DNA of 50,200 bases from a virus. Lineage: Duplodnaviria; Heunggongvirae; Uroviricota; Caudoviricetes. The stretch lies in the IMG/VR virus record IMGVR_UViG_3300021399_000001, positions 133,905-184,104 of that record. One strand, given 5' to 3'. The notes under the pieces were generated by a model. It saw only the letters and a list, made by a program, of their open reading frames with translations, was not told the DNA's origin and ran no database searches. The position numbers and the translations under genes are program-made. Positions 117-40,076 of this stretch are shown piece by piece (position 1 is the first letter of the stretch; every line of letters starts with the position of its first letter).

Positions 117-183
117 AGAATAAATTAGAAATAATACCTATCTTATGATAGGATTATTTCTTTATATCGGAGGTGTGGGAATA

Positions 184-372
184 TTGATTGAAGAAATTAT
201 AAACAAATATATTAAATTTTATCCAAAATATTTTAAAAATCAAGGAGAGGCGGCAGAAGCACTTAATATCAGCCGTTCTCATTTTAACAAAATAATTCAT
301 AAAAGGGACAAGCCATCTTTATCCTTATTAATGCGAATGGAAGAAAAAATGAAGGAGTATAATTATGAATGA
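184..372 (+). CDS. XRE/Cro-type helix-turn-helix protein
   Basis: HTH pattern NQGEAAEALNISRSHFNKII...PSL. Likely start is TTG at 184, after GGAGG at 169-173 (ORF track starts at 145). Confidence 0.75.
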   Translation: MIEEIINKYIKFYPKYFKNQGEAAEALNISRSHFNKIIHKRDKPSLSLLMRMEEKMKEYNYE

Positions 373-547
373 TAAACTTTATATAATCTATATGCCAAGA
401 GTTGCAGCCGCATTACGCGATTTAGGATTTAAACTAATAAAAACTACTGCTAATATAAAAAAACCTCAATATGATGTTTATTGGTTTGAAGATACACCAG
501 AATTACGCGCGGCCATTCCATTAGCTGTTAAAAGAGCTAAACGTTAA
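365..547 (+). CDS. small DUF5659-like protein
   Basis: Pattern A..L...GF.LIKT..N.KKPQYDVYWFEDTPELR.AI resembles DUF5659 (recalled by eye). Overlaps the upstream stop. Confidence 0.55.
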   Translation: MNDKLYIIYMPRVAAALRDLGFKLIKTTANIKKPQYDVYWFEDTPELRAAIPLAVKRAKR

Positions 548-577
548 TATACAGGTTATTATTCAGGAGGAAGCAGT

Positions 578-940
578 ATGAATTATAAAAATCAAAAAAG
601 AATTGAAATCAAATTATTTGATTCAATTACTCATAAAGAAGGGACTAATGATAGTTTTTTACAGCCAATTAATTGGAAATACTATGAAATCGCTCTACAA
701 AGTCTTAGCGGCAATGCCTTTAAACTATGGCTATATCTTCTAAAATGGCAAGGTAAGGGATACTATGATTTTTCACCCGTTCATCTTTGTGAAGCATTGG
801 GGATAGGAAGCAAGAATACGATAAGAACAATAAAAGACGAACTTATTCAAAAAAAGTATATGGTAGAAGTTTCACAAAATGTATATTACTTTTATCCTTG
901 CGGCCATGCCGATTTAATATACCAAAAATTGACTTCATGA
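578..940 (+). CDS. winged helix-turn-helix protein, Rep/replication-initiator-like
   Basis: LSGNAFKLWLYL...FSPVHLCEALGIGSKNTIRTIKDELIQKKYM followed by a beta-wing (VEVSQNVYYF). RBS GGAGG upstream. Lies directly before a repeat array. Confidence 0.6.
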   Translation: MNYKNQKRIEIKLFDSITHKEGTNDSFLQPINWKYYEIALQSLSGNAFKLWLYLLKWQGKGYYDFSPVHLCEALGIGSKNTIRTIKDELIQKKYMVEVSQNVYYFYPCGHADLIYQKLTS

Positions 941-1109
941 ATAACCCAAAAATTGACTGTTGGAAACTACCAAAAATTGGTAGTTTTCCCCAATAACCCA
1001 ATTTTTGGTAGTTTCAATGGTCAAAATTGGTATATTGAAAGTCAATTTTTGGTAGTTTCAAAAATCTATATATCAAAAATTGGTATATTCACGGTCAAAT
1101 TTTGGTATA
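921..1109. repeat. iteron-like array: 8 direct and inverted copies of a CAA-(A/T)n-TTG-cored 13-20 bp motif
   Basis: accaaaaattgac 921-933; cccaaaaattgac 945-957; aaactacca-aaaat-tggtagttt palindrome 964-986; caatttttggtagtttca 999-1016 and 1043-1060; ggtcaaaattggtatatt 1019-1036; tcaaaaattggtatatt 1073-1089; ggtcaaattttggtata 1093-1109. Confidence 0.85.
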
Positions 1110-1164
1110 GTAATATAAATATATATAAATATGTAAAAATAAAAATATATAGAAAAAAAAATAT
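1110..1164. other. AT-rich tract next to the repeat array (possible DNA-unwinding element)
   Basis: Almost entirely A/T for about 55 bp, then a GC clamp ggcgcgaacgcgcgc at 1165-1179. Confidence 0.5.
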
Positions 1165-1184
1165 GGCGCGAACGCGCGCAATAT

Positions 1185-1213
1185 TTGACATAATTTAAAA
1201 ATTATGTTATAAT
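1185..1213 (+). promoter_or_regulatory. SigA/sigma70 consensus promoter with extended -10
   Basis: TTGACA (1185-1190), 17 bp spacer, TG-T-TATAAT (-10 at 1208-1213). RBS AAGGAG and ATG 1234 follow. Confidence 0.9.
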
Positions 1214-1233: not shown

Positions 1234-1641
1234 ATGTATAAACGAGAAAAGAGATGGCGCTCAAAGTATAAAGCCAAAGAATTAAATCCAAATTTCCCAT
1301 TAGATATGAAAGTATTAAAAAACCAAGAAGAGGCAACGGAAAAACTTAATTTAATTTATAAAGAAATTGATACAGAAGAACTAGGCGGAGGAGGCTTACA
1401 TTATCATCTTTGTACTTTTAAAATGTTAAGTAATGACAAAAGCAGACAACGACATGAATGTAAAGAATGGTTAAAGAAGCACCCAATAGAATATCCAGAA
1501 AATAATGAGTTTTTAGATGCTTGTGATTTATGTCCTATGATGAATTACATTGCATTAGATGATGAAGGCAAAATTATGTATGTGTCAAGAACATTTCCAA
1601 AAGAAATTCTAGCATGGGAAAGGAAGAGAAATAATAAATGA
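1234..1641 (+). CDS. hypothetical protein
   Basis: 135-aa ORF with promoter and strong RBS. Confidence 0.75.
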   Translation: MYKREKRWRSKYKAKELNPNFPLDMKVLKNQEEATEKLNLIYKEIDTEELGGGGLHYHLCTFKMLSNDKSRQRHECKEWLKKHPIEYPENNEFLDACDLCPMMNYIALDDEGKIMYVSRTFPKEILAWERKRNNK

Positions 1642-5897: not shown

Positions 5898-5964
5898 TTT
5901 TTCTTTTAATTTGTGAAAAATATTTATATGGCAAAATTATTAATAAAGATTGGAGAAACTTAAA

Positions 5965-6744
5965 ATGTCTAAAATTGATAAAACTGGACAAATAATTGGC
6001 ATTTATCATGTAGATAGTATAAATGAAGAAGCTACTCGATATTTTAATGATGGCACCCGTTATAATGTTACTTGTATAAATTGTGGAATAAAAAATCCTG
6101 GAAAAAATAAAAGAAATCCTTTTGGAGCGGTTCGTAGTGATAATTTAAGTAAGCGCGCATGCCCTAAATGTCATCATGGCGGGAAACCAAAATTGCAACT
6201 TAAAGAAGGATTGACTATTAATAATTGTATTTTAATAAAACAATTAAATTATACTATTCCTAAACAAGGAAGGGCTTGGCTTCTTAAAAATAATAATAAA
6301 GTCTTTATCCGCGGTGAAAGTGCTTTAAAACTTGGCGAAGGATGGCATATAAATGAAGAATCAGAAGAATATGAATCTCCTTTAGCTAAAAAAGGAAGAG
6401 CTTTATTAGATGAAAATGGCATTTATCATTGTCAAGATTACTCAATTGATAATTTAAAACTCGAAGAAAATAGTACTAGACAATTAAGATTTGATGATTT
6501 TTTACCAGCATTTCATGCTTTTATTGAATGGGATGGTGCTCAACATGCGGCTACAACATTACAATGGGGTAGAGATCCAGAAAAAATTAAACAATCTGAT
6601 AAAGTAAAACTAGAATGGTGTGAAAAACATCATATGAATTTAATTAGAATTAAAGAAGATGATATTAATAATTTAAAAATTGAAGATTTAATTCCAGGGC
6701 CTTCAAAATATCAAGTTAATTCTAAATTTTATATTGGGCAATAG
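5965..6744 (+). CDS. second Zn-finger plus Vsr/DUF559-like endonuclease
   Basis: N-terminal IDKTGQIIG (DLTGxxFG-like), CINC and CPKC, then LRFDDF...FIEWDGAQH...DKVKLEWCEKHHMNLIRI. Confidence 0.75.
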   Translation: MSKIDKTGQIIGIYHVDSINEEATRYFNDGTRYNVTCINCGIKNPGKNKRNPFGAVRSDNLSKRACPKCHHGGKPKLQLKEGLTINNCILIKQLNYTIPKQGRAWLLKNNNKVFIRGESALKLGEGWHINEESEEYESPLAKKGRALLDENGIYHCQDYSIDNLKLEENSTRQLRFDDFLPAFHAFIEWDGAQHAATTLQWGRDPEKIKQSDKVKLEWCEKHHMNLIRIKEDDINNLKIEDLIPGPSKYQVNSKFYIGQ

Positions 6745-11700: not shown

Positions 11701-11790
11701 TAAGAGGGAAGCAAAGAATTAGCTACTCTTTGAGATAATGTGCTCCCACACAAGCCTCTTATATAATCAATATCCTGGGAGGGATTATGA
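11701..11790 (+). other. structured 5' leader RNA with an RBS-sequestering hairpin
   Basis: taagagg/cctctta (11701-07/11755-61); caaaga/tctttg (11712-17/11727-32); taatc..atcc/ggat..gatta pairing across GGAGG and the start region. Confidence 0.5.
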
Positions 11791-12476
11791 TGGGATATAT
11801 TTACAAAATCACAAATGATGTGAATGACAAAGTTTATATTGGTCAAACTACGTTATCTATTGAAACTCGCTTTAAACAACATTTATATAATTCTAATAAC
11901 AATATTAAAAACAAATTTTATAATGCTATTCGTTTAATAGGCCAAGAAATGTTTCACGTTTCTTTAATAGAAGAAATTTCAGATTCTTTATTAGATGAAA
12001 GAGAAATATATTGGATTAATTATTATAATAGTTATTATAATGGTTATAATTCTACATTAGGTGGTTGTGGCAATAAACGATTAAACGAGGGCATTGAAAA
12101 ACAAGTTTTAATATTACGGCAACAAAATAAAAAGATTTTTGAAATTTGTCAAGAATTAAAATGTAGTAGAGAAACAGTAGTTGATATTTTAAAAAATCAT
12201 AATTTAAATACCGCTCACGCTAAAGACGCTTTAATTTGTGAAATGAAAGAGGCTGGATACGGCACTGTATTAATAGCTAGTATTTTAAATTGTGGAACAA
12301 CTACAATAAATAGAGTTTTGCAGCGACTACGACCTGATTTATTAACAACAAATCAACGAGAAAATAATAAAACAAGAGCCCGCGAGCTTAGACAGCAGGG
12401 ATATACTTTAAATGAAATAGGAAAAGAATTAAAAATTTCTCGTCAAACAGTAGCAAAATATTTAACTAATATTTGA
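11787..12476 (+). CDS. free-standing GIY-YIG homing endonuclease with C-terminal HTH repeats
   Basis: GYIYKITN...VYIGQT, RFKQH, LLDEREIYWI, GYNST.GG, followed by three HTH-like segments. Confidence 0.9.
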   Translation: MMGYIYKITNDVNDKVYIGQTTLSIETRFKQHLYNSNNNIKNKFYNAIRLIGQEMFHVSLIEEISDSLLDEREIYWINYYNSYYNGYNSTLGGCGNKRLNEGIEKQVLILRQQNKKIFEICQELKCSRETVVDILKNHNLNTAHAKDALICEMKEAGYGTVLIASILNCGTTTINRVLQRLRPDLLTTNQRENNKTRARELRQQGYTLNEIGKELKISRQTVAKYLTNI

Positions 12477-12584: not shown

Positions 12585-12944
12585 ATGATTACACCCAATT
12601 CAGAGCTAGTATTAAATTTTCTCAAGAAGCATTTTGGCCAGGAGTTTACCAAGAATGAGATTGCAGAGACCCTAGGTATTTCCATTCCCGCCGTTACCGG
12701 TTCTATTAATGGCCTAGTTAAGAAGGGCTATGTTACTGAGCGTCTAGAAGAGAAGGTTGTTGAGGATGCTACCGAGACTCGTAAGGCGAAGGTAAAGACT
12801 ATTCGTCATGAGACTCTAACTGAAGCTGGCCTAGCTTATGATCCAGTAGCCGAGGAAGAGGCCAAGCAGGCTGCTAAGGCTGCTGAGAAGGAGCGCAAGG
12901 CTGCTGAGCGTGCTGCTGCTAAGGCTGCCAAGGAGAACGCCTAA
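12585..12944 (+). CDS. wHTH DNA-binding protein with Ala/Lys-rich tail (nucleoid-protein-like)
   Basis: FTKNEIAETLGISIPAVTGSINGLVKKGYV wHTH and a C-terminal AAKAAEKERKAAERAAAKAAKENA tail. Strong codon bias. Confidence 0.75.
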   Translation: MITPNSELVLNFLKKHFGQEFTKNEIAETLGISIPAVTGSINGLVKKGYVTERLEEKVVEDATETRKAKVKTIRHETLTEAGLAYDPVAEEEAKQAAKAAEKERKAAERAAAKAAKENA

Positions 12945-15596: not shown

Positions 15597-17216
15597 ATGA
15601 CACTATCAGATAAGACGGCATATCGTCAGATAGTAGGAAGTTTAATGCATAATCTTCTTTTGTTTGTAGAATATCCAGATATAAATCCTTATGACTTTGT
15701 AGAGGCAAAAGTAGATAGAGCCTGCTTTCTAATAATAAGAGGTATGTATGAAGCAGGAGCAAAAAGTTTAAGTGTATATGAAGTAGATAAGGAATTTGAA
15801 AATCAAAAAGGAACTGCGGCCGCATCTCAATATTTTAGTAATGGCGGTTTAGAGTATTTAAAAAATGCATATGAATTTGCTGAACCAAGCAATTTTCAAA
15901 TGTATTATAACAGATTAAAAAAATATTCATTACTTTATCAATTAAAAAAAGCACATTATGATATTAGTAATTTTTATATAGAAGATAAAGATGCGGATGA
16001 TCCATTAAAAGCAAGTGAAGTTCAAAAGCATTGCGAAGAATCTAGTCTTGATGATATTCTTGCAGAAGTAGAAGGAAAATTTAATGAAATTAGAAATGAT
16101 TTCGTTAATGGTGAAAAAAGAAATGGAGACCCGGCAAATAGTATTTTTGAACTTATTGATAATTTACAAAAAACTCCAAATATCGGTCCTGACCTTGAAG
16201 GAGATATTTTTAGTTCAGTTTGCCGTGGAGCAAGAGAAGGGTGCTTTTTTTTAAAGTCAGCAAGTACAAATGCTGGTAAAAGTAGAACATCAGTTTTTGA
16301 TGCGTGCCGTTTAGCATATCCGAAAAGGTGGTCACATGAAAAAGGAACATTTATTCATGAAATAAATTTTGATGAACCACGGCAACCTCGTAAAGTTTTA
16401 TTTATTGTAACAGAGATGGATGTAGAAGAAATTCAAACAATGATGCTGGCGTATCTATCTGGTGTAGATGAGGCACATATCCTTACTGGTAGATATGAAC
16501 CAGGAGAACTTCAACGAGTAAAATTTGCAGCAACAATAATGCAAGAATATCAAGGTTATTTTTTAATTGAAGAAATTAGTGAACCGAATCTTGTGAATGT
16601 TGAAGCAACAATAAAAAAGTATGCGACAGTAGATGGAGTAAAATATGTGTTCTTTGATTATATCCATTCAACCGCAAGTATGATGAATCAATTTGCGAAA
16701 AATGGTTTGCGCGAAGATGTTATTCTTATGATGATGGCAAATCAATTAAAACAAATAGCAAAAGATTATAATGTTTTTATTTTTTCTGCAACACAAGTAA
16801 ATGCAAAAGGTATGGAAACTGATGGAGAATTTAAAGATGAATCTTGTATTCGTGGCTCAAAAGCAGTAGCAGATAAATGCGATATGGGTTGCGTAATGAG
16901 TAGAGTAGATAATAAAATGTGGGATGATTTAATTCCAAAACTAAGACCTTATGTAAGGGATGGTCTTATCGACGCGGTATATCTAGAAAATCCCGATTAT
17001 CGTCCAACTCATATCATAGATATTTATAAAATGCGTCGTGGACGTTATCGTGGCATAAGAATTTGGTCACATATCCATCTTGGTACAGGAAGAAGAGTTG
17101 ATTTATTTATGACTTCTTCAAATAATTCGCCAATAGAATGGAACGCCGATATTTTTCAAACTACAATAGAAGAAATGATAAGTAATTGGCGTGAAATGAT
17201 AAAGGAGGGCACATAA
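15597..17216 (+). CDS. dnaB: DnaB-like (SF4) replicative helicase
   Basis: ASTNAGKS Walker A, VTEM, VFFDYIH, FSATQVN, RGSKAVADKCD, KMRRG. Confidence 0.9.
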   Translation: MTLSDKTAYRQIVGSLMHNLLLFVEYPDINPYDFVEAKVDRACFLIIRGMYEAGAKSLSVYEVDKEFENQKGTAAASQYFSNGGLEYLKNAYEFAEPSNFQMYYNRLKKYSLLYQLKKAHYDISNFYIEDKDADDPLKASEVQKHCEESSLDDILAEVEGKFNEIRNDFVNGEKRNGDPANSIFELIDNLQKTPNIGPDLEGDIFSSVCRGAREGCFFLKSASTNAGKSRTSVFDACRLAYPKRWSHEKGTFIHEINFDEPRQPRKVLFIVTEMDVEEIQTMMLAYLSGVDEAHILTGRYEPGELQRVKFAATIMQEYQGYFLIEEISEPNLVNVEATIKKYATVDGVKYVFFDYIHSTASMMNQFAKNGLREDVILMMMANQLKQIAKDYNVFIFSATQVNAKGMETDGEFKDESCIRGSKAVADKCDMGCVMSRVDNKMWDDLIPKLRPYVRDGLIDAVYLENPDYRPTHIIDIYKMRRGRYRGIRIWSHIHLGTGRRVDLFMTSSNNSPIEWNADIFQTTIEEMISNWREMIKEGT

Positions 17217-18341
17217 TTGCTAACAACATTACAAAATCAAGATAGCGAACTTGATTTAGCAATAGCAAATAAAAAAGATATTATAGATTCTATAACCCTT
17301 CAAGATGTAAAAAATTTTCTTGAAAGTCTGGGTGTAACTCAGATTATGGTTAATGAAGAAAAACAATATCTTGTATGTCCCACTATTTGTCATAACCCCA
17401 TTAATGAAGCTGAATCTATGAAATTGTATTGGTATCAAAATAATAAAATATTTAGATGCTATACTGAATGTAATGAAGCAATGTCTATATTTAGATTATA
17501 TCAAAAATATATGGCATTAAATCATTATCCAGTTACTATAGAAGAAGCTGAAGATTATGTAAAACAATGTCTAAAACATATTGTTATAAATACAAATAAA
17601 GTATCATATAACTATGAATTAGATTTAAACAAATATCAATTTAATAATAATATTCCAATTCTTGATGAATATCCAAAAGAAGTTTTATCATATTTTACGC
17701 ATTATTATCATCCAACTTGGTTACGAGATGGAATAACTCCAGAAGCTATGGATAGATTTCATATTGGTTTTTCATTAGGACAAAATAAAATTATTATCCC
17801 ACACTTCGATATAAATGGAAGACTAATTGGTATTCGCGGGCGAACTTTAGATAAAAAAGAAGCTGAAGCATATGGAAAATACCGACCATTACAAATCGGT
17901 AAAATAACCTATGCTCATCCATTACAATTTAATTTATATGGGATACACGAACATCAAAATGGAATTAAAACGCGGCGACAAGCAATCATAGCAGAAGCTG
18001 AAAAATCAGTGCTATTAGATGATGGATATTATGGAGATTTAAGTAATTGTGTCGCGTGTTGTGGTTCGACTTTTAATAAATATCATATCAGTTTATTAAC
18101 TAATGTTTTAGGCGCAAATGAAATTATTGTAGCATTAGATAAAGAATATACTGATTGGAAAAGTGAAAAAGCCCGTAAATATAAAGAACGAATTGTATCT
18201 ATGTGTCGTAAATATAGTAATCAAGCAATTTTTTCTTATATTTGGGATTATGATAATGTATTAGAAGAAAAAGATTCTCCTTTTGATAAAGGAAAAGAAG
18301 TTTTTGAACATTTATATAAAACAAGAGTAAAAGTGAGGTAG
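17217..18341 (+). CDS. dnaG: DNA primase (Zn-binding domain plus TOPRIM)
   Basis: CPTICH...CYTEC Zn domain, IIIPHFD..GRLIGIRGR, IAEAEKS, VALDKE. Confidence 0.9.
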   Translation: MLTTLQNQDSELDLAIANKKDIIDSITLQDVKNFLESLGVTQIMVNEEKQYLVCPTICHNPINEAESMKLYWYQNNKIFRCYTECNEAMSIFRLYQKYMALNHYPVTIEEAEDYVKQCLKHIVINTNKVSYNYELDLNKYQFNNNIPILDEYPKEVLSYFTHYYHPTWLRDGITPEAMDRFHIGFSLGQNKIIIPHFDINGRLIGIRGRTLDKKEAEAYGKYRPLQIGKITYAHPLQFNLYGIHEHQNGIKTRRQAIIAEAEKSVLLDDGYYGDLSNCVACCGSTFNKYHISLLTNVLGANEIIVALDKEYTDWKSEKARKYKERIVSMCRKYSNQAIFSYIWDYDNVLEEKDSPFDKGKEVFEHLYKTRVKVR

Positions 18342-21009: not shown

Positions 21010-24000
21010 GTGAGTAAATACCCAGGTAGTCTTCATAATCACACAGATTATAGCAATGAGACTTTACGAGATTGTATTAATAAAGTAAATTCTCTGATTG
21101 ATACAGCAATTAATTTGAATCATGAATGTGTAGCAATTACAGATCATGAAACCATTTCAAGTTATATTAAAGCTGAAAAATATTATAATAAAATTAAAAA
21201 GGAACATCCAAATTTTAAACTTATTCGTGGCAATGAAATTTATCTTACACGGAATGATTTAAACGCGACAAATTATGACAAGAATAAAGATAGGTATTTC
21301 CACTTTATTCTTCTTTGTCGTGATTTGGAAGGTTATCATCAGATTTGTGAACTTTCTACTCGCGCGTGGCGTCGTTCTTATATTAGTCGTAGATTAAGGA
21401 GACGTCCAACTTATTATCGAGATTTAAAGGAAGTTGTAAAACCAAACCAGGGACATTTAATTGCATCATCAGCATGTCTTGGATCACAGCTAGATAAATT
21501 TCTTTTAAGATATATGGATACTGGCGATGAAGAATTTTATAAGACAGCTAAAAGCTGGTGTTTATATATTGAAGATATATTTGGTCGCGGTAATTTTTAT
21601 CTTGAATTACAGCCATCTAATAATAAAGAGCAAATATTTGTTAATCAACATCTTATCAAGATAGCAAATGAATTAAAGCTACCATATATTATCACAACTG
21701 ATAGCCATTATTTGCGGCCAGAAGATTCATTTATTCATGAATCTTTTCTTAACGCCCAAGATGGTGAGCGCGAAGTAAGAAGTTTCTATGAAACAACCTA
21801 CATGATGAGTGATGAAGAAATTCGTTCATTTTTTCCTTATCTTGAAGAAGAAGAAATTGAAATAGCATTTGATTATATTAGAGAAATTAAAGATAGATGC
21901 GAAGATTTCTCAATACTAAAGCCGCTAGAAATTCCTAATCTACCTTGGCGAGATTATAATGACCCTGGAGATGAAAGAATTTTATGGGGCATTAAGCAAA
22001 TGCCAGCCCTAGAAAAATTTGTATATTCTCAATATAATGCTGATAACATTCTATCATGGGCTGTATTGGATGGAATTGAAAGACATAGAGATTTACAGAA
22101 TAATAAAGCGTATAACGCATTAAATGAATGTCTTGAAATGACATGGGAATCAAGCGAAGTAAATAAAGCACGTTGGTCCGCCTATTTCTTAAATCTTCAA
22201 AAGATTATTGATGAATGCTGGAACGCTGGTACTTTAGTTATGCCCGCGCGTGGCTCTGGTGGTGGCTTTCTACTTCTATATGCACTAGACATTATTCAAA
22301 TTAATGCTCTGCGTGAAAAGACTGCTATGTATCCTTGGCGTTTCCTCAATCCAGCTCGTGTATCTGTTCTTGATATTGATGTAGACATTTCTGGTATTAA
22401 GCGCGCGCAAGTATTAGAGCATTTGAGAAAGTATTATGGCGAGAACCGAGTATCAAATGTTGCGACATTTAAAGTAGAGAAATCAAAATCTGCAATTCTT
22501 ACCGCATGTCGTGGACTAGGAATTGATGTAGATAATGCCCAGTATATTTCTTCTCTAATAACACAAGAACGTGGTCAAGCATATACATTGCATCAAATGT
22601 ATTATGGTGATGAAGAAAATGGTATAAAACCAAATCCAACATTTGTTGAAGAAATAAATAAGTATGACAAATTATGGGAAGTCGCAAGTAAAATTGAAGG
22701 TCTAATTTGTGGTTATGGTATTCACGCTGGTGGCGTAGTATTTAAAGATAAGGATTTCACTGAATCTAGTGCGCTTATGCGTGCGCCCGATGGAACAATT
22801 ATTACTCAGTTTGAGCTTCACGATTTGGAAGATGTTTCAGAAATCAAAATGGACCTTCTATCAGTTGAAGCAGCAGATAAAATTCAAACTTGTCTTGAAC
22901 TGCTAATTAAAGATGGATATATTAAACAATATCCTACTTTGCGTGAAACTTATGAAAACGCGCTTGGCGTTTATAATATTCTTCGTGATGATGAAGAAAT
23001 GTGGAAGTTAGTAGACGAGCATAAAATCGTTAGTCTTTTTCAAATGGAAAAAGCGAGCGGTATCCGCGGCATTTCATTAACTCACCCTAAGAATGTTGAT
23101 GACCTAGCCACTTTAAATTCTGTTATTCGTCTAATGGCTTCTGAAAAGGGCGCTGAAGCGCCACTAGATAAATATGCTCGTTTTCGTAAACATCCTAATG
23201 ATTGGGAAATCGAAATGATCCAATATGGTCTTTCAAATAAGGAACGAGAATTGCTTCATGAGCAATTAGATGTTTCAGACGGTTTGTCAATTACACAGGA
23301 ACAATTTATGAAATTGGTTCAGCTACCTGAATGCGGCGGCTGGGACTTGCAATGGGCAGATAGGCTTCGTAAAAGTATTGCAAAGAAGAATCCAAAAGAA
23401 TATGAGCAATTAACAAAAGAATTTTATGAGCGAGTAGAGGAAAAAAATCTTAGCAAAAGATTTTGTCATTATGTTTGGGACATTCAGATAGCATTAAGTC
23501 GCGGATATGGTTTTAATGCGAGTCATACTTATGCTTATTCCATTATTGCTCTTCAAGAAATGAACTTAGCATATAGATATCCAATTGTGTATTGGAATAC
23601 AGCCAATTTAATTGTAGACAGTGGTGGCGTTCAAGCGGAAGATATTGATGAAGAAGATGAAGATGAAATTCAAGCTGTCTTATTAGAAAATAGCGTTGAA
23701 TATATGAACACTTGTGAATATTTAGATGAGGAAGACGAAGAAGAGTGGGAAGAAGCAAATGAAGAAACAACCGAAGCAACGGCAGATAAAAAGAAGAAAA
23801 AGAATAAAGTCGTTGATTATGGACGCATCGCCTCTATTATTGGTAAAATGGGGGATTACGGAATTAAAGTATCTCCACCTGACATCAACCAATCTTCTTT
23901 TACATTTACACCCATTGCAAAAGATAATGTTATTCTTTATGGGCTACGCGGCATCACTCGCGTCTCCACGGACAAGATTAATGAAATTATGGCTATGCGA

Positions 24001-24999
24001 CCATATGAGTCATTGAAGGATTTCTTAATGAAAATTAAAGTAAATAAACTTCAAATGATAAATTTAATTAAGTCTGGCGCATTTGATAATATTGAAAATA
24101 TTCCACGCGAACAAATCATGGCAAAGTATATTGACATGATTGCAGATAAGAAGCAAAGATTGACTCTTCAAAATATGTCAATGTTGATTGCGAAAAATCA
24201 GATACCAGCTGATATGCAATTCTATGCGAAGTTATTTTCATTCAATAAGTTTCTAAAGACCTGCAAAAATGGAATTTATTATGAGTTAAATGAAGCCGCG
24301 ATTAACTTTATTGACAATCATTTTGATATAGATATAGTTGAAGATGGTACAAGGGTTTTACAAAAAACTTGGGATAACATCTATAAGAAGGCAATGGAAC
24401 CAATGCGTCAGTATTTAAAAGATAATAAAGAAGAGGCGTTGGCTAAGTTAAATAAGGCTTTATACGATGAAATTGCTGATAAGTATGCTGATGGTAATAT
24501 TAGTAAGTGGGAAATGGATAGTATCTCATTCTATTATCATGAACATGAATTAGCAAAAGCTAAAAATGACTTTGATGATTTCTTCAAATTATCAGAAGAA
24601 CCTGAAATTGAATATAGTTTTTCTGGAAACAATGGACAAGAAATAAAAGTATATAAGTTATTTAAAATAATTGGAACTGTAATTGATAAGGATAAGAATC
24701 GCAATACTGTTACACTTTTAACTCCAACAGGCGTTGTAAATGTAAAGGTTTATAAGAATCAATATGCGATTTATGACAAACAATTAAGTCAGCGCGGCGA
24801 TGATGGCAAAAAACATGTTATTGAAAAGAGCTGGTTCTCGCGCGGGACAAAACTAATGGTTCAAGGTATTCGTCGCGGAAACGACTTTATTCCAAAGAAA
24901 AAGAAACAATCAATCTATCCAATTATTTCAAAAATAACAAATATAGACGAATATGGAAACTTAACTTTCCAATATGAGCGCGCGGAGGTAGAAGAATGA
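21010..24999 (+). CDS. dnaE: DNA polymerase III alpha subunit (family C, PHP domain, C-terminal OB fold)
   Basis: HNHTDYS, ITDHE, GNEIY, SACLGS, TTDSHY, RGSGGG, DIDVD, GIHAGG, KMDLL, GYGFNASH..AYS. Confidence 0.95.
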   Translation: MSKYPGSLHNHTDYSNETLRDCINKVNSLIDTAINLNHECVAITDHETISSYIKAEKYYNKIKKEHPNFKLIRGNEIYLTRNDLNATNYDKNKDRYFHFILLCRDLEGYHQICELSTRAWRRSYISRRLRRRPTYYRDLKEVVKPNQGHLIASSACLGSQLDKFLLRYMDTGDEEFYKTAKSWCLYIEDIFGRGNFYLELQPSNNKEQIFVNQHLIKIANELKLPYIITTDSHYLRPEDSFIHESFLNAQDGEREVRSFYETTYMMSDEEIRSFFPYLEEEEIEIAFDYIREIKDRCEDFSILKPLEIPNLPWRDYNDPGDERILWGIKQMPALEKFVYSQYNADNILSWAVLDGIERHRDLQNNKAYNALNECLEMTWESSEVNKARWSAYFLNLQKIIDECWNAGTLVMPARGSGGGFLLLYALDIIQINALREKTAMYPWRFLNPARVSVLDIDVDISGIKRAQVLEHLRKYYGENRVSNVATFKVEKSKSAILTACRGLGIDVDNAQYISSLITQERGQAYTLHQMYYGDEENGIKPNPTFVEEINKYDKLWEVASKIEGLICGYGIHAGGVVFKDKDFTESSALMRAPDGTIITQFELHDLEDVSEIKMDLLSVEAADKIQTCLELLIKDGYIKQYPTLRETYENALGVYNILRDDEEMWKLVDEHKIVSLFQMEKASGIRGISLTHPKNVDDLATLNSVIRLMASEKGAEAPLDKYARFRKHPNDWEIEMIQYGLSNKERELLHEQLDVSDGLSITQEQFMKLVQLPECGGWDLQWADRLRKSIAKKNPKEYEQLTKEFYERVEEKNLSKRFCHYVWDIQIALSRGYGFNASHTYAYSIIALQEMNLAYRYPIVYWNTANLIVDSGGVQAEDIDEEDEDEIQAVLLENSVEYMNTCEYLDEEDEEEWEEANEETTEATADKKKKKNKVVDYGRIASIIGKMGDYGIKVSPPDINQSSFTFTPIAKDNVILYGLRGITRVSTDKINEIMAMRPYESLKDFLMKIKVNKLQMINLIKSGAFDNIENIPREQIMAKYIDMIADKKQRLTLQNMSMLIAKNQIPADMQFYAKLFSFNKFLKTCKNGIYYELNEAAINFIDNHFDIDIVEDGTRVLQKTWDNIYKKAMEPMRQYLKDNKEEALAKLNKALYDEIADKYADGNISKWEMDSISFYYHEHELAKAKNDFDDFFKLSEEPEIEYSFSGNNGQEIKVYKLFKIIGTVIDKDKNRNTVTLLTPTGVVNVKVYKNQYAIYDKQLSQRGDDGKKHVIEKSWFSRGTKLMVQGIRRGNDFIPKKKKQSIYPIISKITNIDEYGNLTFQYERAEVEE

Positions 25000-29755: not shown

Positions 29756-30769
29756 ATGTTGTATGGAATAATAGGAATACTTACGATTGTAATAATTGTA
29801 TTAGGTGTAAAACTAAAACAAAAAATTTCAATTGACAATAAGCAATTAGAAGTTTATAAGAAAGAAATTTCTGAAGCAGAAGGAAGAGTTGAAAAACTTC
29901 GTTTTCAAAAAGATGAGTTAACAAAAGATATTAAAACACAAACTGATTTAGTCAGTGAATATAATGATAAATTAATTGAAATTCAGAACAAATATAAACG
30001 AGAATTAAATAAGAAAACGGCAGATTTAGATTTATATTTTGAAAACCAAAAACTTACGCGTCAATCAGAAATGGATACAGATTTTGAACGATTATGGCGC
30101 GAAAAAGAAGAAAATCTCAAATCTAAATATGCGCAGTTTGAGCGCGAAGAATTAGAACGAGAACATAAATTTTGTCAAGAAACTCAATCAGTAATTGATG
30201 CCGCGCGCGAAAGCCAAGAAAATATTCTAGCAGAGACTCACGCGCAACAAGAACGCTTTGAGGGATTATTACTCCCTTTACGGCAATATGAAATGGAACA
30301 ACAGGAACGCCTATTTTATACAATACAAGTTCCCGATGAATATAAAGAAGATATTAACTTTTTAATTACTACTGTTTCTCAAAAAGTTCAGCATCCTGAT
30401 ATTATAAATAAACTTGTATGGGCTGAATATGTGAAGCCTTATATAGATGGGACTTTTAAGCGGGTTGGCGTTGAAGATAAACCTGGCATTTATAAAATTA
30501 CAAATCTTGATACTGGTAAATGCTATATTGGTAAAAGTACCAATGTTAAGAAACGAATATCTGACCATTTTAAAAGTTCAATAGGTATAAAAACGATTGC
30601 CGATCAAGCCGTTCATCATGAAATATGGAAAACAGGATTTTGGAATTGGACAATTGAAGTAATTATTTATTGTGAAAAAGAACAATTAAATGAATTAGAA
30701 AAATATTATATAGATTTCTTTAAAAGCCAAGAATTTGGATATAATAAAAATGTAGGCGGTGGTGGCTAA
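29756..30769 (+). CDS. membrane-anchored coiled-coil protein with a C-terminal GIY-YIG nuclease domain
   Basis: N-terminal TM LYGIIGILTIVIIVLGV, about 170 aa of E/K/Q-rich coiled coil, then PGIYKITN...CYIGKS..VKKRISDH...LNELEKYYI...GYN. Confidence 0.8.
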   Translation: MLYGIIGILTIVIIVLGVKLKQKISIDNKQLEVYKKEISEAEGRVEKLRFQKDELTKDIKTQTDLVSEYNDKLIEIQNKYKRELNKKTADLDLYFENQKLTRQSEMDTDFERLWREKEENLKSKYAQFEREELEREHKFCQETQSVIDAARESQENILAETHAQQERFEGLLLPLRQYEMEQQERLFYTIQVPDEYKEDINFLITTVSQKVQHPDIINKLVWAEYVKPYIDGTFKRVGVEDKPGIYKITNLDTGKCYIGKSTNVKKRISDHFKSSIGIKTIADQAVHHEIWKTGFWNWTIEVIIYCEKEQLNELEKYYIDFFKSQEFGYNKNVGGGG

Positions 30770-33531: not shown

Positions 33532-33729
33532 TTATTCTGGAATACTTTCGGTCGCGTAATCTAAAATATCATTTGCTTTATTTTTAATTTCTGAATTTGT
33601 AATTACACGATCAAAACGTTGATTATCTTTAATAATTCTTCCGGTTGTTTCGTCTACTTCGCTATAAGTAGCAGACATACGCATTCCTACTGCGTCATTA
33701 AAAAAAGTTACACTTGTAATAATTTTCAT
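33532..33729 (-). CDS. small tail-region protein
   Basis: 65 aa, RBS GGAGG on the - strand, overlaps the stop of the tail gene. Confidence 0.7.
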   Translation of the reverse strand: MKIITSVTFFNDAVGMRMSATYSEVDETTGRIIKDNQRFDRVITNSEIKNKANDILDYATESIPE

Positions 33730-36700
33730 TCTAGTATCCTCCCTTGTTTAAGGTTATTAATATATGATTCAGCTTCTTCGCCATAATTTTGTTCCGGTAA
33801 CTTAAATGGTTCTTCCTCATATTTTTCAAGTCGTAATTGATCATAATCTCGTTGCTTAGCTTTTACTTCCCAACCAAATTTTAAATTAGGAGTACCCTGA
33901 ACTATAAAATAAGAGCCATAACGTTCTAGTATCCAACAATCTCCTTCGCCATATTTTTGAAGAGAAACTTGATATTGGTCTGTCGTAATAGTTCGTGCGA
34001 ATATCGGATCAAATGAAACATAGCAATATCCATCTTCTCCTATAATGCCTTCTCCTATGTCGCCAAACATCGGGGTTGGAGTTTCATAACAATATAATAA
34101 TCTATTAAAATATTGTTCCGTGTTAACAACGCGACTTTTACTACCAGTTACTACCGCTGAACCATTAATTGTAAAATTAGTCCCATTATTTAAATTTATA
34201 TATCCAAGTCCAAGTTTCATATGCCCCTGTTGCTGGCTATTTATATTTAAAAACCATTCGATATAATCCGGATAAATTGTAGTAATATTTTGTTGTACTT
34301 GATTTGCGCCATTAAGTTTTTTATTTACAGTAGTTATAAAATCTGTCCCTAATTTAGTATAATACTCATTAGGCTGTTCTAGTAAAATTCCATCAATTCC
34401 TATCTGAGTGTAACCATTTTCATTATTATTTTGATTGCTATGTTCAATTTTTATTTTATTAGAACTAATTTTAGTTTTACTAAGAGAATTAAATCCCGAT
34501 ATTTGATTGTTATAAGAATTTAATTCAATCCACCCTTCATTACTGATAGATAACTTAGCAACATTATTATCTGTTAAAAATCCTGTTAAAAAATTATTTA
34601 TAGAAACTTCTTGTCCACTAGAATCTTGAGCAGTTAAAATAGTTAAACCAGTAGCAACAATATTACCACGTAAGGTTAAATTTCCAGTATCTGGATCAGC
34701 ATAGAATGTGTCCTTTCCTTCATTATTTCTTAATGTTAATCCATTCCAAGAAATTTCTACTCGTTTTACAGTCCGTGTTAAAGGCTCAGAATAATTACTA
34801 TTATTTTTATTAAAAATTCTAGCGCCTTTTTCAGCTATTAAAAACAACCCTTCAGAATTTAAAGTCACGTATTGGTTTGGATCCAATTCTTTTTGCTGGT
34901 CTGTCAAATTATTAATAACAGTCTCAGCTGTGCTATTTTCACTAATATCATCTGTTAAAAATGATTTATAAGCAAATAATCCATCAGCATTCAACTGAAA
35001 TCTCTTCTGATCTCCCGCAAAAATACTAACATTATTAGTATCAATCTGACCTACCATAACATTTTTCATATTTATTCCTGCGGGCGTAATAAGAGTCTTC
35101 CAATTCCAATCAGTGCTTGATTCCAGAGTTGCCTCTGGCTCTGTCCCCAATAACCTTTTAGACATTAAGTTTCGTGTCGGTCCAGCAGTATTTGTAGAAT
35201 AATTAGTTACCTTTTTTGTAGCACCAAATAACCCGCCATCACGTAGCGCTAAAATACCTTCATCATTTTGAAATATAATACCATGTGCAGGATCAATACT
35301 AAAAGTAGTTTTACCATTTTTATAATTAGTTTGTAAATTATTTAAAACTGATTGCATAGCATTAGCTTGTAATGATCCATCTGCGGAAAAAGCATTAGAA
35401 ACAATTCCTGCCACATATGATTGTTTTTTCATTGCTTCTGTAGAAGCGACTATTTTTGTAAATAAATCTTCAAATTTAGTCTTATAATTTTTAATTTCTA
35501 TACTATCTTCCCAAGGTTTATCTAAATTTAAAGTTACTTCTGATACATAACCTTGAACATTTTCAAATTTAAGTTCAGGATCATTTATATGAACTATGCG
35601 ATTAAGCATACGATGCACTTGTAAAATATAATCTTTTTGTACCGCGGCGACATCTACTGAATATGATACTTGCGGTTGTGAACTATCTTTCATAACTTCA
35701 ATTGCGTCAAGATAAATAGAAACATTCGCATTAGATAGAGTATAAAGAATATCTAATTTTTTATCTAATCCGTTCTCTAATAGAGCCTTTGCATCTAAAG
35801 TAATATAATATCCTTCTTCGCCTTCATTAGTTCTAGTTAAAACTGAATAATCTTCATAGGCTTCTAATTTTTCCCCATTATATAATAAGGAAAGCTGATC
35901 AGTGCTATTTTTTACCGCTAATGAATCTATTTTTATTCGCGGATAAATAATATCATAATTATTCATCATTGACTCTTGAGTAATAAAAATATCTCCGTCT
36001 AAAATATTTGAAGCTATATAATCTTCTTCATTGACTTGTAATTGCACGTTTGCCCCTTCACCAATAACTTCTGTTTTTAAAATTCCAATAGCGCAATCAT
36101 ATTTTATACTATTTTCAAGTTCATTACAACCATCAATAATTGTTCGATCAGCTAAAGGTAAATTTTTAAATCCAGTAAGAAGTAATGCTGGTTTAATAGT
36201 ACCATCCGCGCGCGTTTTTAGAAAGACTAATTGAGCTTGCGAACCAGCCACCATACTTTTTTTAAATTTCGCTGATTTTTGTTCTTCACTAGCAATAAAA
36301 TCATAATAAATGAAAGCAATTTTATCCCATTCTATTTTTTCCTCTTGATTTAAAAGACTATCTAATAAAATACCTGGATAATATTGTTGATCTTGTTGTG
36401 TTCCAACTTCATAGTAAAGTTCTTGCTCTTCATCAAACAATTCTGTATCCCAAATATATGACGCTTTTTCAGTTTGTCCTTTTATTACTTCGCCTGTTTG
36501 ATTAATTTGAAAACTATCAGTATAAATATCTCCATAATCATTATAGTCTTCTGGTTGCCAATAACCCTCTCGTAAAGCAGGACCCATTAATAATTCAAAA
36601 TCTTTTATTAATTTTTCCTTTTCTTTTTGTTTTTCATCAATTGAATTTTGACATACTTCAATTTGAGAATTAATATCTTCTATTAACTGTTTTTGAGCTT

Positions 36701-38351: not shown

Positions 38352-38372
38352 TCTATCTCCCTCCTTTAACTC

Positions 38373-40070: not shown

Positions 40071-40076
40071 ACTCCA

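What the first reader, a model, noticed from the sequence alone, without database searches (positions are those of the whole stretch)
184..1180. Plasmid-style Rep-iteron-DUE cassette (XRE-HTH / DUF5659-like / wHTH) inside a phage with its own full replisome
Seen: three coupled small genes end in a wHTH protein. Its last codons already hold the first of 8 direct or inverted CAA-(A/T)n-TTG motifs (921-1109, centres about 21-32 bp apart). A ~55-bp AT-only tract and a GC clamp follow, then a separate promoter for the next operon. Known: initiator plus iterons plus an AT-rich element is the layout of theta origins (plasmid Rep/iteron systems, lambda O). Inference: this is the phage origin, recognised by a 120-aa stand-alone wHTH initiator that recruits the phage DnaB/DnaG/DnaE. 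It could instead be a relic origin for a plasmid-like prophage state. The mixed-orientation, quasi-palindromic units suggest dimer binding.
Basis: partly seen in the sequence, partly recalled or inferred. Interest (0 to 1): 0.72.

Follow-up and report, generated by a model that had tools for sequence, protein, structure and literature searches.

The report
Candidate replication origin of rumen jumbo phage
A 184-kb uncultured rumen phage carries, at the head of its DNA-replication genes, a small DNA-binding protein gene followed by eight copies of its probable binding site, the most easily melted DNA in the genome and a conserved hairpin; this is very probably the phage's replication origin, a familiar design run by an unusually small, unnamed starter protein.

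Summary
Eight quasi-palindromic units (core CAA-W4-5-TTG) lie at 920-1107. The first overlaps the last codons of a 120-aa winged-helix gene. A 55-bp A+T tract, a GC hairpin and a consensus promoter follow.

- **Uniqueness:** the array occurs once in the 184-kb genome.
- **Conservation:** about 25 related loci keep gene, array, AT element and hairpin. No relative with enough downstream DNA lacks the array.
- **Co-variation:** below about 46% protein identity the unit sequence usually changes, while the AT element stays nearly invariant and the hairpin keeps its pairing.
- **Melting:** the AT element is the least stable 40-bp and 60-bp duplex of the genome.
- **Protein family:** it resembles only the origin-binding N-terminal domain of phage DnaD-like/O-like initiators. 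It has no helicase-recruiting domain.
- **Not found in the genome:** the partition and integrase families searched (ParA AAA_31, ParB, tubulin, tyrosine integrase), DnaA, and a DnaD C-domain.

Best reading, at about 0.6: a lambda/SPP1-type theta origin with a minimal, dimeric initiator. Function is not shown. Skew evidence is ambiguous, and no raw reads were available for a coverage test. The relic plasmid-prophage idea is not supported.

This scan has reported iteron origins in other phages, but not this protein family. I class it as a new variant of a known kind, of moderate interest.

The parts
137..152 (+). Terminator-like hairpin followed by a T-run, just upstream of the three-gene cassette
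   Evidence: It suggests the cassette is its own transcription unit. No consensus promoter was found between 116 and 184.
184..372 (+). Small XRE-type HTH protein (62 aa from TTG 184; alternative ATG at 145)
   Evidence: HTH_3 E 0.0014, below the cut-off. Homologues of 63-65 aa with HTH_3 sit at the same place in L020, L023 and L016.
365..547 (+). DUF5659 protein (60 aa), function unknown, overlapping the previous gene by 8 nt
   Evidence: PF18903 at 28 bits against a 23.6-bit cut-off. It sits directly upstream of the wHTH gene in L018, L019, L020 and the remote relative L033. It is absent in L016 and L021.
578..940 (+). 120-aa stand-alone winged-helix protein, the presumed origin-binding initiator
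   Evidence: HTH_36 at 22.7 bits. PHROG 186 DnaD-like loader N-terminus at 3e-6 and PHROG 270 at 3e-4. It is the only match to these families in the genome. The AF2 model has pLDDT 77.7 and a wHTH fold. The homodimer model scores 0.59 against a best control of 0.00.
920..1107 (.). Array of 8 quasi-palindromic units (GGT/TAC-CAA-W3-TTG-GTA). Cores at 923-931, 947-955, 971-979, 999-1007, 1022-1029, 1043-1051, 1074-1082 and 1096-1104.
   Evidence: The array is unique in the genome. It is conserved after the wHTH gene in all relatives, and the unit changes with the protein.
1110..1134 (.). Near-invariant A+T element (GTAATATAAATAT... holding two tandem ATATAAATAT 10-mers) abutting the last unit
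   Evidence: It is present in all close relatives and in recognisable form in remote ones. It is 23 of 23 identical in L036 beside unrelated units. It occurs once in the genome.
1108..1163 (.). A+T-rich tract, the presumed DNA unwinding element
   Evidence: By nearest-neighbour energies it holds the least stable 40-bp and 60-bp duplex windows of the whole 184-kb genome.
1160..1179 (.). Invariant AATATG anchor plus a GC hairpin (stem 1166-1170 / 1175-1179)
   Evidence: The anchor is invariant. 14 of 16 distinct relatives keep a stem of at least 4 bp at the same offset with different sequences. Mean stem is 4.9 bp against 2.8 +/- 0.2 in shuffles. On the - strand it reads as an intrinsic terminator. 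It is unique in the genome.
1179..1187 (.). Ninth core-like site (CAATATTTG) overlapping the -35 hexamer
   Evidence: It is kept only in the closest relatives (L001, L002, L010), so a role as an operator is uncertain.
1185..1213 (+). Consensus host-type promoter, TTGACA-17-TGnTATAAT
   Evidence: It is one of about 58 such promoters on the + strand of this genome. It is absent between the hairpin and the next gene in L009, L016, L018, L032 and L033.
1234..1641 (+). First downstream gene (135 aa, no family); not part of the module
   Evidence: The downstream genes differ among relatives while the module is kept.
15597..17216 (+). DnaB-like replicative helicase, the presumed client of the origin (inferred)
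   Evidence: DnaB_C at 1.5e-13 and PHROG 19 at 3e-45.
17217..18341 (+). DNA primase (inferred client)
   Evidence: PHROG 47 at 8e-34.
21010..24999 (+). Pol III alpha (DnaE-type) polymerase (inferred client)
   Evidence: PHP, DNA_pol3_alpha, finger and HHH_6 domains.

Best explanation
The stretch 578-1180 is the phage's theta-type replication origin together with its initiator gene.

Proposed mechanism, with what is shown and what is inferred:
1. Dimers of the 120-aa winged-helix protein bind the eight dyad-symmetric units. The dimer is supported only by a model, and binding is inferred. The units lie two or three helical turns apart, so all sit on one face of the DNA.
2. They would form a lambda O-some-like nucleoprotein complex right against the conserved TA-rich element at 1110-1134.
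3. Torsional stress from this complex would open the 1108-1163 tract. Negative supercoiling from the phage gyrase, and from the strong promoter that fires away from the tract, would help. This step is inferred. What is shown is that the tract is the easiest DNA to melt in the genome.
4. The GC hairpin at 1166-1179 bounds the bubble. It may also act as a structural signal on the unwound strand or on a transcript. Its structure is shown to be conserved, but its role is unknown.
5. The phage DnaB-like helicase, primase and DnaE then assemble there (inferred).

The protein consists of little more than the DNA-binding head. Helicase recruitment must therefore use another surface or partner. Candidates are its nearly invariant N-terminal M-(A)-N-Y-x-N-Q motif, the co-transcribed DUF5659 protein, or the conserved AT element and hairpin themselves.
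For: 1. The units are real, clustered and unique in 184 kb.
2. Every relative with enough downstream DNA keeps the order gene, array, AT element, AATATG plus hairpin. That is about 25 loci at 33-97% protein identity. The genes further downstream vary.
3. The unit sequence changes with the protein. Relatives at 63% identity or more keep CAA-W-TTG. Remote relatives carry other units:
   - AACCAAAATGGTT in L016
   - GCCAAATAATTTGGC in L029
   - AGGAAAATTTCCT in L032
   - GGCACGATTTTCGTGCC in L033
   - GTATGAAAAAATCATAC in L036
   The AT element stays nearly identical throughout.
4. The first unit overlaps the stop codon or last codons of the gene in most lineages. This recalls origins embedded in lambda O and SPP1 gene 38 (PMC3349717, PMC5737612).
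5. The spacing of the DUE-proximal units, 22-31-22 bp, is conserved across relatives.
6. The AT tract ranks first for duplex instability at 40 and 60 bp in the whole genome.
7. Of 54 family members, 39 hit PHROG 186 (DnaD-like loader, N-terminus), 28 hit PHROG 270 and 13 hit the O-like PHROG 678. Pfam matches are HTH_36 in 22, DnaD_N in 3 and RepL in 1. HTH_36 is reported in plasmid Rep proteins and in proteins of Stx-phage replication regions (PMC3832669, PMC8951638).
8. This gene is the only match to those initiator families in the genome, and there is no DnaA.
9. The module heads the replication gene block and lies 0-6 kb upstream of gyrB in all relatives examined.
10. The homodimer model scores 0.59 against a best control of 0.00. 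Twenty of 30 solved homodimers and 1 of 23 monomers reached the mark, the three runs agree in at least 94% of contacts, and partner pLDDT is at least 75. This fits dyad-symmetric sites.
11. Third-codon-position GC skew of same-strand genes changes from -0.06 on the left to +0.13 on the right at this locus, with no change of gene orientation (+/-15 kb, Mann-Whitney p 0.006).
Against: - No experiment has been done: binding, unwinding and replication are all untested.
- The protein lacks any recognisable helicase- or loader-interacting domain. No DnaD C-domain, DnaC/IstB or DnaA is encoded anywhere in the genome. A bare wHTH could simply be a regulator.
- Total GC skew has no sign change here. 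Its extremes, near 42 kb and 168 kb, follow the change of gene strand.
- The GC3 step at 135 kb is only the second largest. A similar one lies at 97-101 kb, and the global minimum is at 41.9 kb.
- The step is not reproduced in the remote relative G001.
- The HTH_36 score is below Pfam's cut-off.
- Fold search returns only generic wHTH proteins (MarR, CRP, TubR, ORC), with a best E of 0.017.
- In five relatives the next gene follows the hairpin with no promoter. The array must then be transcribed through, or a promoter hides in the AT tract.
Confidence: 0.6

Rival explanations
1. It is a transcriptional control region. The wHTH protein would be a regulator (repressor, activator or roadblock) whose multiple operators, with curved A+T DNA, control the strong downstream promoter or autoregulate its own operon. 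This could time the early-to-middle switch for the replication genes.
For: - The sites are palindromic and the protein is a small dimeric wHTH, which is typical of repressors.
- Fold neighbours are mostly MarR/CRP-type regulators.
- A ninth core-like site overlaps the -35 hexamer in the window and its closest relatives.
- Units 1 and 2 contain TTGAC.
Against: - The eight main units lie 80-260 bp upstream of the promoter, at a distance that varies among relatives.
- Five relatives have no promoter after the hairpin at all, yet keep the array, AT element and hairpin.
- The downstream genes vary while the module is constant.
- The family hits initiator PHROGs, not repressor PHROGs.
- The site overlapping the -35 is not conserved beyond the closest relatives.
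- This reading does not explain an invariant, maximally unstable AT element beside units that change.
Confidence: 0.2
2. It is a functional origin, but one used only in a plasmid-like prophage state, or a decaying relic of one.
For: The layout of iterons, AT tract and GC element resembles iteron plasmids such as RK2 oriV (my own knowledge). An XRE-type HTH gene heads the cassette.
Against: - No ParA (AAA_31), ParB, tubulin/TubZ or tyrosine integrase is found in a record rated 100% complete.
- There is no plasmid homologue.
- The units, their spacing, the AT element and the hairpin pairing are all maintained across divergent relatives, which is the opposite of a relic.
- The module sits at the head of the lytic replication genes.
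Confidence: 0.05
3. It is a partition centromere or a packaging (pac) site. The repeats would be bound by a small centromere-binding protein (ParR/TubR-like) or by a small-terminase-like HTH protein.
For: Iterated sites next to the gene of a small dimeric DNA-binding protein are the layout of parC/tubC centromeres and of some pac sites (my own knowledge). TubR and AspA appear among weak fold matches, at E 0.3-0.4.
Against: - No tubulin, ParA or ParB is present in the genome.
- The gene lies in the replication block, not beside structural or terminase genes.
- There is no PHROG match to terminase or partition families.
- A conserved, maximally unstable AT element has no role in either model.
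Confidence: 0.05

Closest known systems
Phage lambda ori with O protein
   Same: - Repeated initiator sites, each with internal dyad symmetry, are bound by initiator dimers through an N-terminal winged-helix domain.
- An A+T-rich unwinding region lies directly beside the last repeat. Lambda has four 18-bp iterons plus a 38-bp AT-rich stretch inside gene O (PMC3349717).
- By my own recollection, not checked here, a palindrome follows the AT region in lambda as well.
- The origin overlaps the initiator's coding sequence.
- 13 of 54 family members hit O-like PHROGs.
   Different: - Here the gene ends at the first unit, so the protein corresponds only to an O-like head. There is no C-terminal domain to bind a P-like loader, and no P/DnaC-like gene.
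- There are eight units rather than four.
- The phage brings its own DnaB-like helicase, primase and DnaE.
- There was no significant sequence match to any solved structure.
Bacillus phage SPP1 oriL with replisome organizer G38P
   Same: The initiator gene carries its own binding repeats (AB boxes) next to an AT-rich DUE. The initiator is not an AAA+ protein. Supercoiling is required (PMC5737612). The best family-level matches here are to DnaD-like organizer families (PHROG 186).
   Different: G38P has a C-terminal part that works with the loader G39P and the helicase G40P. The protein here matches only positions 19-100 of the 308-position profile, and no DnaD C-domain (PF07261) exists in the genome. 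SPP1 has a second G38P site, oriR, whereas here the array is unique.
Iteron plasmid origins (RK2 oriV/TrfA, pPS10 RepA, F RepE)
   Same: The order is iterons, then an AT-rich region with short repeats, then a GC-rich element (my own knowledge). The initiators are wHTH proteins. HTH_36-type Rep proteins exist on plasmids (PMC3832669).
   Different: Plasmid Rep proteins have two winged-helix domains, and monomers bind direct repeats. Here a single wHTH is predicted to dimerise on dyad-symmetric units. There is no plasmid homologue and no partition system.
Satellite and phage origins with swappable iterons, reported earlier in this scan (e1-469825, e1-1611428)
   Same: A DNA-binding head and its repeats change together next to an AT-rich block, in uncultured or poorly studied elements.
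   Different: Here the AT element and hairpin are conserved far beyond the iterons.

Membership tests
Iteron-type theta origin (lambda ori / SPP1 oriL / iteron plasmids) | Four or more repeated sites, helically phased, next to or inside the initiator gene | tested here: met
   There are 8 units with centre spacings of 21.5-31 bp, and the first lies in the last codons of the wHTH gene.
Iteron-type theta origin (lambda ori / SPP1 oriL / iteron plasmids) | A+T-rich DNA unwinding element directly beside the repeats | tested here: met
   The tract 1108-1163 holds the least stable 40-bp and 60-bp duplex of the 184-kb genome.
Iteron-type theta origin (lambda ori / SPP1 oriL / iteron plasmids) | Repeats are the cognate sites of the adjacent initiator | tested here: inconclusive
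   The unit sequence changes with the protein across relatives. That is co-variation, not a binding assay.
Iteron-type theta origin (lambda ori / SPP1 oriL / iteron plasmids) | Supports initiation of replication (autonomous replication, a bubble, or a marker-frequency peak) | not testable with these tools
   Only assembled contigs of public runs were on offer, with no raw reads. GC3 skew shows a local step here, but it is not unique and is not reproduced in G001.
Iteron-type theta origin (lambda ori / SPP1 oriL / iteron plasmids) | Initiator carries or recruits a helicase-loading function | tested here: not met
   The 120-aa protein is a single wHTH plus one helix. No longer fused forms were found. 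PF07261, IstB/DnaC and DnaA are absent from the genome.
Pfam HTH_36 (PF13730) | Score at or above the gathering cut-off of 25 bits | tested here: not met
   The score is 22.7 bits. 22 of 54 relatives match at E of 0.001 or better.
PHROG 186 DnaD-like helicase loader / PHROG 270 replication initiation protein | Full-length match including the C-terminal DnaD-like part | tested here: not met
   Only profile positions 19-100 of 308 and 28-103 of 383 are matched. The protein resembles the N-terminal DNA-binding head only.
Pfam DUF5659 (PF18903), for ORF 365..547 | Score at or above the gathering cut-off of 23.6 bits | tested here: met
   The score is 28 bits.
Type I/II/III partition centromere with a small centromere-binding protein | Cognate motor NTPase (ParA, ParM or TubZ) encoded with it | tested here: not met
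   AAA_31 ParA, ParB_N and tubulin are not found in the genome. ParM was not searched.
Repressor-operator array | Operators overlap or abut the regulated promoter in a conserved geometry | tested here: inconclusive
   One core-like site overlaps the -35 in the window and its closest relatives only. The distance from array to promoter varies, and the promoter is absent in five relatives.

The most novel reading that the evidence does not exclude
The origin would be built from two separately evolving halves.
- A swappable 'address' module: a minimal, head-only wHTH dimer with its co-varying iterons.
- A conserved 'engine' module: the near-invariant TA-rich element plus the AATATG-anchored hairpin. 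The phage's own helicase/primase would read this directly, with no loader protein and no initiator domain for helicase recruitment.

The invariant N-terminal M-(A)-N-Y-x-N-Q motif or the DUF5659 protein would provide the only protein bridge. If so, this would be the smallest known replication initiator and a new way of coupling origin recognition to helicase entry in large phages.
Probability: 0.25. Interest if true: 0.65.

Novelty: new variant of a known kind. Interest (0 to 1): 0.45.

Why it matters
Origins of large uncultured phages are almost never mapped. Here comparative data define one to the base pair, and they separate what varies (the binding sites, together with the protein) from what does not (the melting element and a structural hairpin).

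If the reading holds, a 120-aa single winged-helix protein would be enough to mark an origin for a phage-encoded DnaB/primase/DnaE replisome. That raises a testable question: how does the helicase get in without a loader or a recruiting domain?

The module gives ready reagents for in-vitro work, a 300-bp fragment and a small soluble-looking protein. It also gives a search signature for annotating origins in related rumen phages. The overall design itself is familiar, so the finding refines known biology rather than overturning it.

Tried and rejected
- **PDB sequence search** with the family profile found no match even at E 10.
- **Foldseek against PDB** gave only generic wHTH folds, best E 0.017, so it cannot discriminate between readings.
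- **Nucleotide and protein searches** of GenBank phages and PLSDB plasmids found no match.
- **NCBIfam** gave nothing meaningful.
- **Rfam** on 1-2000 gave only sub-threshold chance hits caused by the inverted repeats. An RNA reading of the array was dropped because the central W-tract flips orientation freely between relatives without compensation.
- **RNAalifold** on a MAFFT alignment of the hairpins predicted nothing, because stems of different length were misaligned. It was replaced by a stem count at fixed offset with shuffles.
- **The search for related loci** with the remote-family alignment failed for lack of a conserved stretch.
- **Search for longer fused forms** found none, which is weak evidence.
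- **Sequencing runs:** no RNA holder was listed, and all 20 holders are kept as Logan contigs. No depth or marker-frequency test was possible.
- **Host DnaA boxes:** none in the array, and no GATC in 900-1250.
- **Total GC skew** was rejected as a test because it follows gene orientation.
- **GC3 skew in relatives:** G001 shows no inflection, and G002 has too little DNA on one side.
- **Pattern search for the AT element** in viral contigs returned one chance hit, L037, with no wHTH gene and no repeats. This shows that the 23-mer alone is not diagnostic.
- **The 42.75-kb repeat cluster and the 40.3-kb AT block** were considered as alternative origins. Neither combines an initiator-like gene, repeats and an adjacent unwinding tract.
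Full report
**Setting**

The window is bases 133,905-184,104 of a 184,104-bp IMG/VR virus record. The record is rated 100% complete, and its ends overlap by 127 bp, which indicates a circular assembly. G+C is about 33%. Public runs that hold the stretch are ruminant gut metagenomes. The + strand block of the window is a replication and nucleotide-metabolism module:
- GyrB at 6814 and GyrA at 8861
- an AAA_24 ATPase at 13999
- a DnaB-like helicase at 15597 and a primase at 17217
- RecJ at 18843
- Pol III alpha (DnaE-type) at 21010
- NrdD/NrdG, dUTPase and a RuvC-like nuclease

The finding sits at the head of this block.

Three small genes end in a 120-aa protein (578..940). The AlphaFold model, at pLDDT 77.7, is a classical winged helix followed by one C-terminal helix. 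Eight units with the core CAA-W(4-5)-TTG occupy 920-1107, and the first encodes the last residues (Y-Q-K-L) of the protein.

The full unit is about 15 bp and quasi-palindromic. One half-site reads GGTCAA or TACCAA, the centre is three A/T bases, and the other half reads TTGGTA. Centre spacings are 24, 24, 28, 22.5, 21.5, 31 and 22 bp. That is two or three helical turns, so all sites face the same side of the DNA.

In the whole genome, 7 of the 13 YCAAWWWTTGR matches fall in this 190-bp stretch. No other 300-bp window has as many copies of any non-trivial 9-mer.

The elements that follow are:
- a 93% A+T tract at 1108-1163
- the invariant word AATATG
- a 5-bp GC hairpin at 1166-1179
- a 12-of-12 consensus promoter at 1185-1213

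**Comparative evidence**

I collected about 25 related loci from IMG/VR, JGI, ENA and Logan assemblies. Every locus with enough downstream DNA keeps the same order: wHTH gene, then 4-9 units, then an A+T element beginning (A)GTAATA..., then AAATATG(G) plus a GC hairpin. Five points stand out.

1. **The units change with the protein.** Relatives at 63% identity or more keep CAA-W-TTG. Two of the remote relatives (44-46% identity) keep that core with new flanks. The others have quite different dyad-symmetric units, all with an A/T centre:
   - AACCAAAATGGTT
   - GCCAAATAATTTGGC
   - AGGAAAATTTCCT
   - GGCACGATTTTCGTGCC
   - GTATGAAAAAATCATAC
2. **The A+T element does not change.** A 23-nt word from it is identical in L036, whose units and protein are unrelated in sequence to the window's.
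3. **The hairpin changes in sequence but keeps its pairing.** 14 of 16 distinct versions have a stem of 4 bp or more starting 4-6 nt after AATATG. The mean stem is 4.9 bp against 2.8 +/- 0.2 in shuffles.
4. **The spacing of the last units, 22-31-22 bp, is conserved**.
5. **The genes after the module differ between relatives.** Five relatives have no promoter between the hairpin and the next gene.

In the centre of the units, A-runs and T-runs replace each other freely at homologous positions. Only A/T-richness is selected there, as expected for the uncontacted middle of a dimer site. This argues against an RNA structure.

**The melting element**

By nearest-neighbour energies, the 40-bp and 60-bp windows starting at window positions 1111 and 1105 are the least stable duplexes of the entire 184-kb genome. 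Neither the AT element nor the AATATG-hairpin motif recurs elsewhere in the genome, so they are not generic promoters or terminators.

**The protein**

- Pfam gives only a sub-threshold HTH_36 match (22.7 bits against a 25-bit cut-off).
- PHROGs align it to the N-terminal 80-100 positions of 'DnaD-like helicase loader' (phrog_186) and 'replication initiation protein' (phrog_270).
- An exhaustive profile search found 272 cluster representatives, nearly all 100-150 aa long.
- Of 54 of these, 39 hit phrog_186, 28 hit phrog_270 and 13 hit an O-like family. Pfam gives HTH_36 (22), DnaD_N (3) and RepL (1). MarR/TrmB-type matches are few.
- Protein-language-model neighbours point the same way, to HTH_36, RepL, RepA_N and WHD_DnaB, but these are leads only.
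- This gene is the only match to these initiator families in the genome. There is no DnaA, no DnaD C-domain and no DnaC/IstB.
- A homodimer model passes its controls:
  - Score 0.59 against a best control of 0.00.
  - The mark was reached by 20 of 30 solved homodimers and 1 of 23 monomers.
  - The runs agree in at least 94% of contacts, and pLDDT is at least 75.
  - The interface is formed by helices 33-56, which hold many invariant residues.
  - The model supports binding but does not show it.
- The extreme N-terminus, M-(A)-N-Y-x-N-Q, is nearly invariant even at 30% overall identity. It is modelled with low confidence, which makes it a candidate contact motif.

**What it most likely is**

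The anatomy matches experimentally defined phage origins. Lambda ori has four 18-bp iterons joined to a 38-bp AT-rich stretch inside gene O (PMC3349717). SPP1 oriL has G38P-bound AB boxes next to an AT-rich DUE inside gene 38 and depends on supercoiling (PMC5737612).

I therefore read 578-1180 as initiator gene plus origin. Dimers load onto phased sites, distort the DNA and open the adjacent TA-rich element. The phage helicase, primase and DnaE then enter. The steps shown here are the existence, uniqueness, conservation, co-variation and physical instability of the elements. Binding, opening and recruitment are inferred.

The main difficulty is that the protein is only a DNA-binding head. How a helicase would be brought in is unknown.

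**Skew**

Total GC skew simply follows gene orientation, with extremes near 42 kb and 168 kb, so it cannot test the idea.

Third-codon-position skew of genes that all lie on the + strand changes from -0.06 to +0.13 at the locus (+/-15 kb, p 0.006). This gives a local minimum of the cumulative curve at 133.9-135.0 kb. However, an equally large step lies at 97-101 kb and the global minimum is at 41.9 kb. A remote relative, G001, shows no step. I count this as weak, mixed evidence.

**Rivals**

- **Regulator with operators (0.2).** This fits the dimeric wHTH and the one core-like site over the -35. It does not explain the variable or missing promoter, the variable downstream genes, or the invariant melting element.
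- **Partition centromere or pac site (0.05).** There is no motor or terminase partner nearby.
- **Relic plasmid-prophage origin (0.05).** This is contradicted by strong constraint on every element and by the lack of matches to the partition and integrase families searched.

**Novelty**

Iteron origins beside or inside initiator genes are textbook, and this scan has already reported several in other phages. It has not reported this protein family. Three things are new here:
- a large, unnamed family of head-only wHTH proteins
- the clean split between a variable recognition part and a conserved melting and hairpin part
- the occurrence in about 180-kb rumen phages that carry their own DnaB/primase/DnaE

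I class it as a new variant of a known kind.

Noticed in passing
genome 42,750-42,890 (L025:4749-4891), outside the window: Five copies of GGAATTTCATTTT-like repeats lie in an intergenic gap. The cluster is almost exactly antipodal, on the 184-kb circle, to the array at 134.9 kb. It is also next to the global minimum of cumulative GC and GC3 skew (about 41.9 kb). It could be a terminus, a second origin or an operator cluster.
   Followed up: partly
genome 40,300-40,430 (L025:2300-2430), outside the window: About 130 bp of nearly pure A+T (96% over 100 bp) with three tandem 10-bp AATAATTTAA repeats lies in the divergent gap where the gene strand switches, upstream of a 416-aa gene. It is the least stable 80-bp window of the genome.
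   Followed up: partly
L020:3363-3790: One relative carries two tandem modules after a single wHTH gene. The usual array and AT element come first. A second array with different flanks (CAAAAATTGCAGGAG units) follows, with a second AT element, a weak hairpin and a promoter. It may be an orphan origin copy of different specificity.
   Followed up: no
proteins P0044 (2580 aa) and fused forms in alignment A2: A 2580-aa representative matches the N-terminal part of the family in 13 separate stretches. Two to four of 54 remote relatives fuse the wHTH head to GIY-YIG or HNH homing-endonuclease domains, which recalls origin-directed nucleases.
   Followed up: no
whole genome, + strand: About 58 near-perfect TTGAC(A/T)-17-TATAAT promoters, most with an extended TG, are present. 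The phage appears to rely heavily on the host sigma-70-type polymerase. Many at 23-37 kb are preceded by a GTTAATTAGA...TCTAATTAAC palindrome and TTAAC.
   Followed up: partly
window 5950-6744, 11787-12476, 29756-30769: Three homing-endonuclease-like genes (one HNH and two GIY-YIG, one of them with a resolvase-type HTH_7) are interspersed in the replication and nucleotide-metabolism block.
   Followed up: no
window 12585-12944: A second small wHTH protein (119 aa) lies inside the replication block. It gives weak MarR-like PHROG matches and the only other, very weak, HTH_36 hit in the genome.
   Followed up: no
window 33726-50198, - strand: Three very large ORFs of 1541 aa, 565 aa and more than 3373 aa (the last runs off the window end) lie on the opposite strand. 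They were not examined.
   Followed up: no
window 1166-1179 and homologous sites in relatives: Read on the - strand, the conserved GC hairpin followed by CCATATTTTT looks like an intrinsic terminator, yet no - strand gene or promoter lies nearby. In five relatives the hairpin sits 6-10 nt before the next gene's ribosome-binding site.
   Followed up: partly
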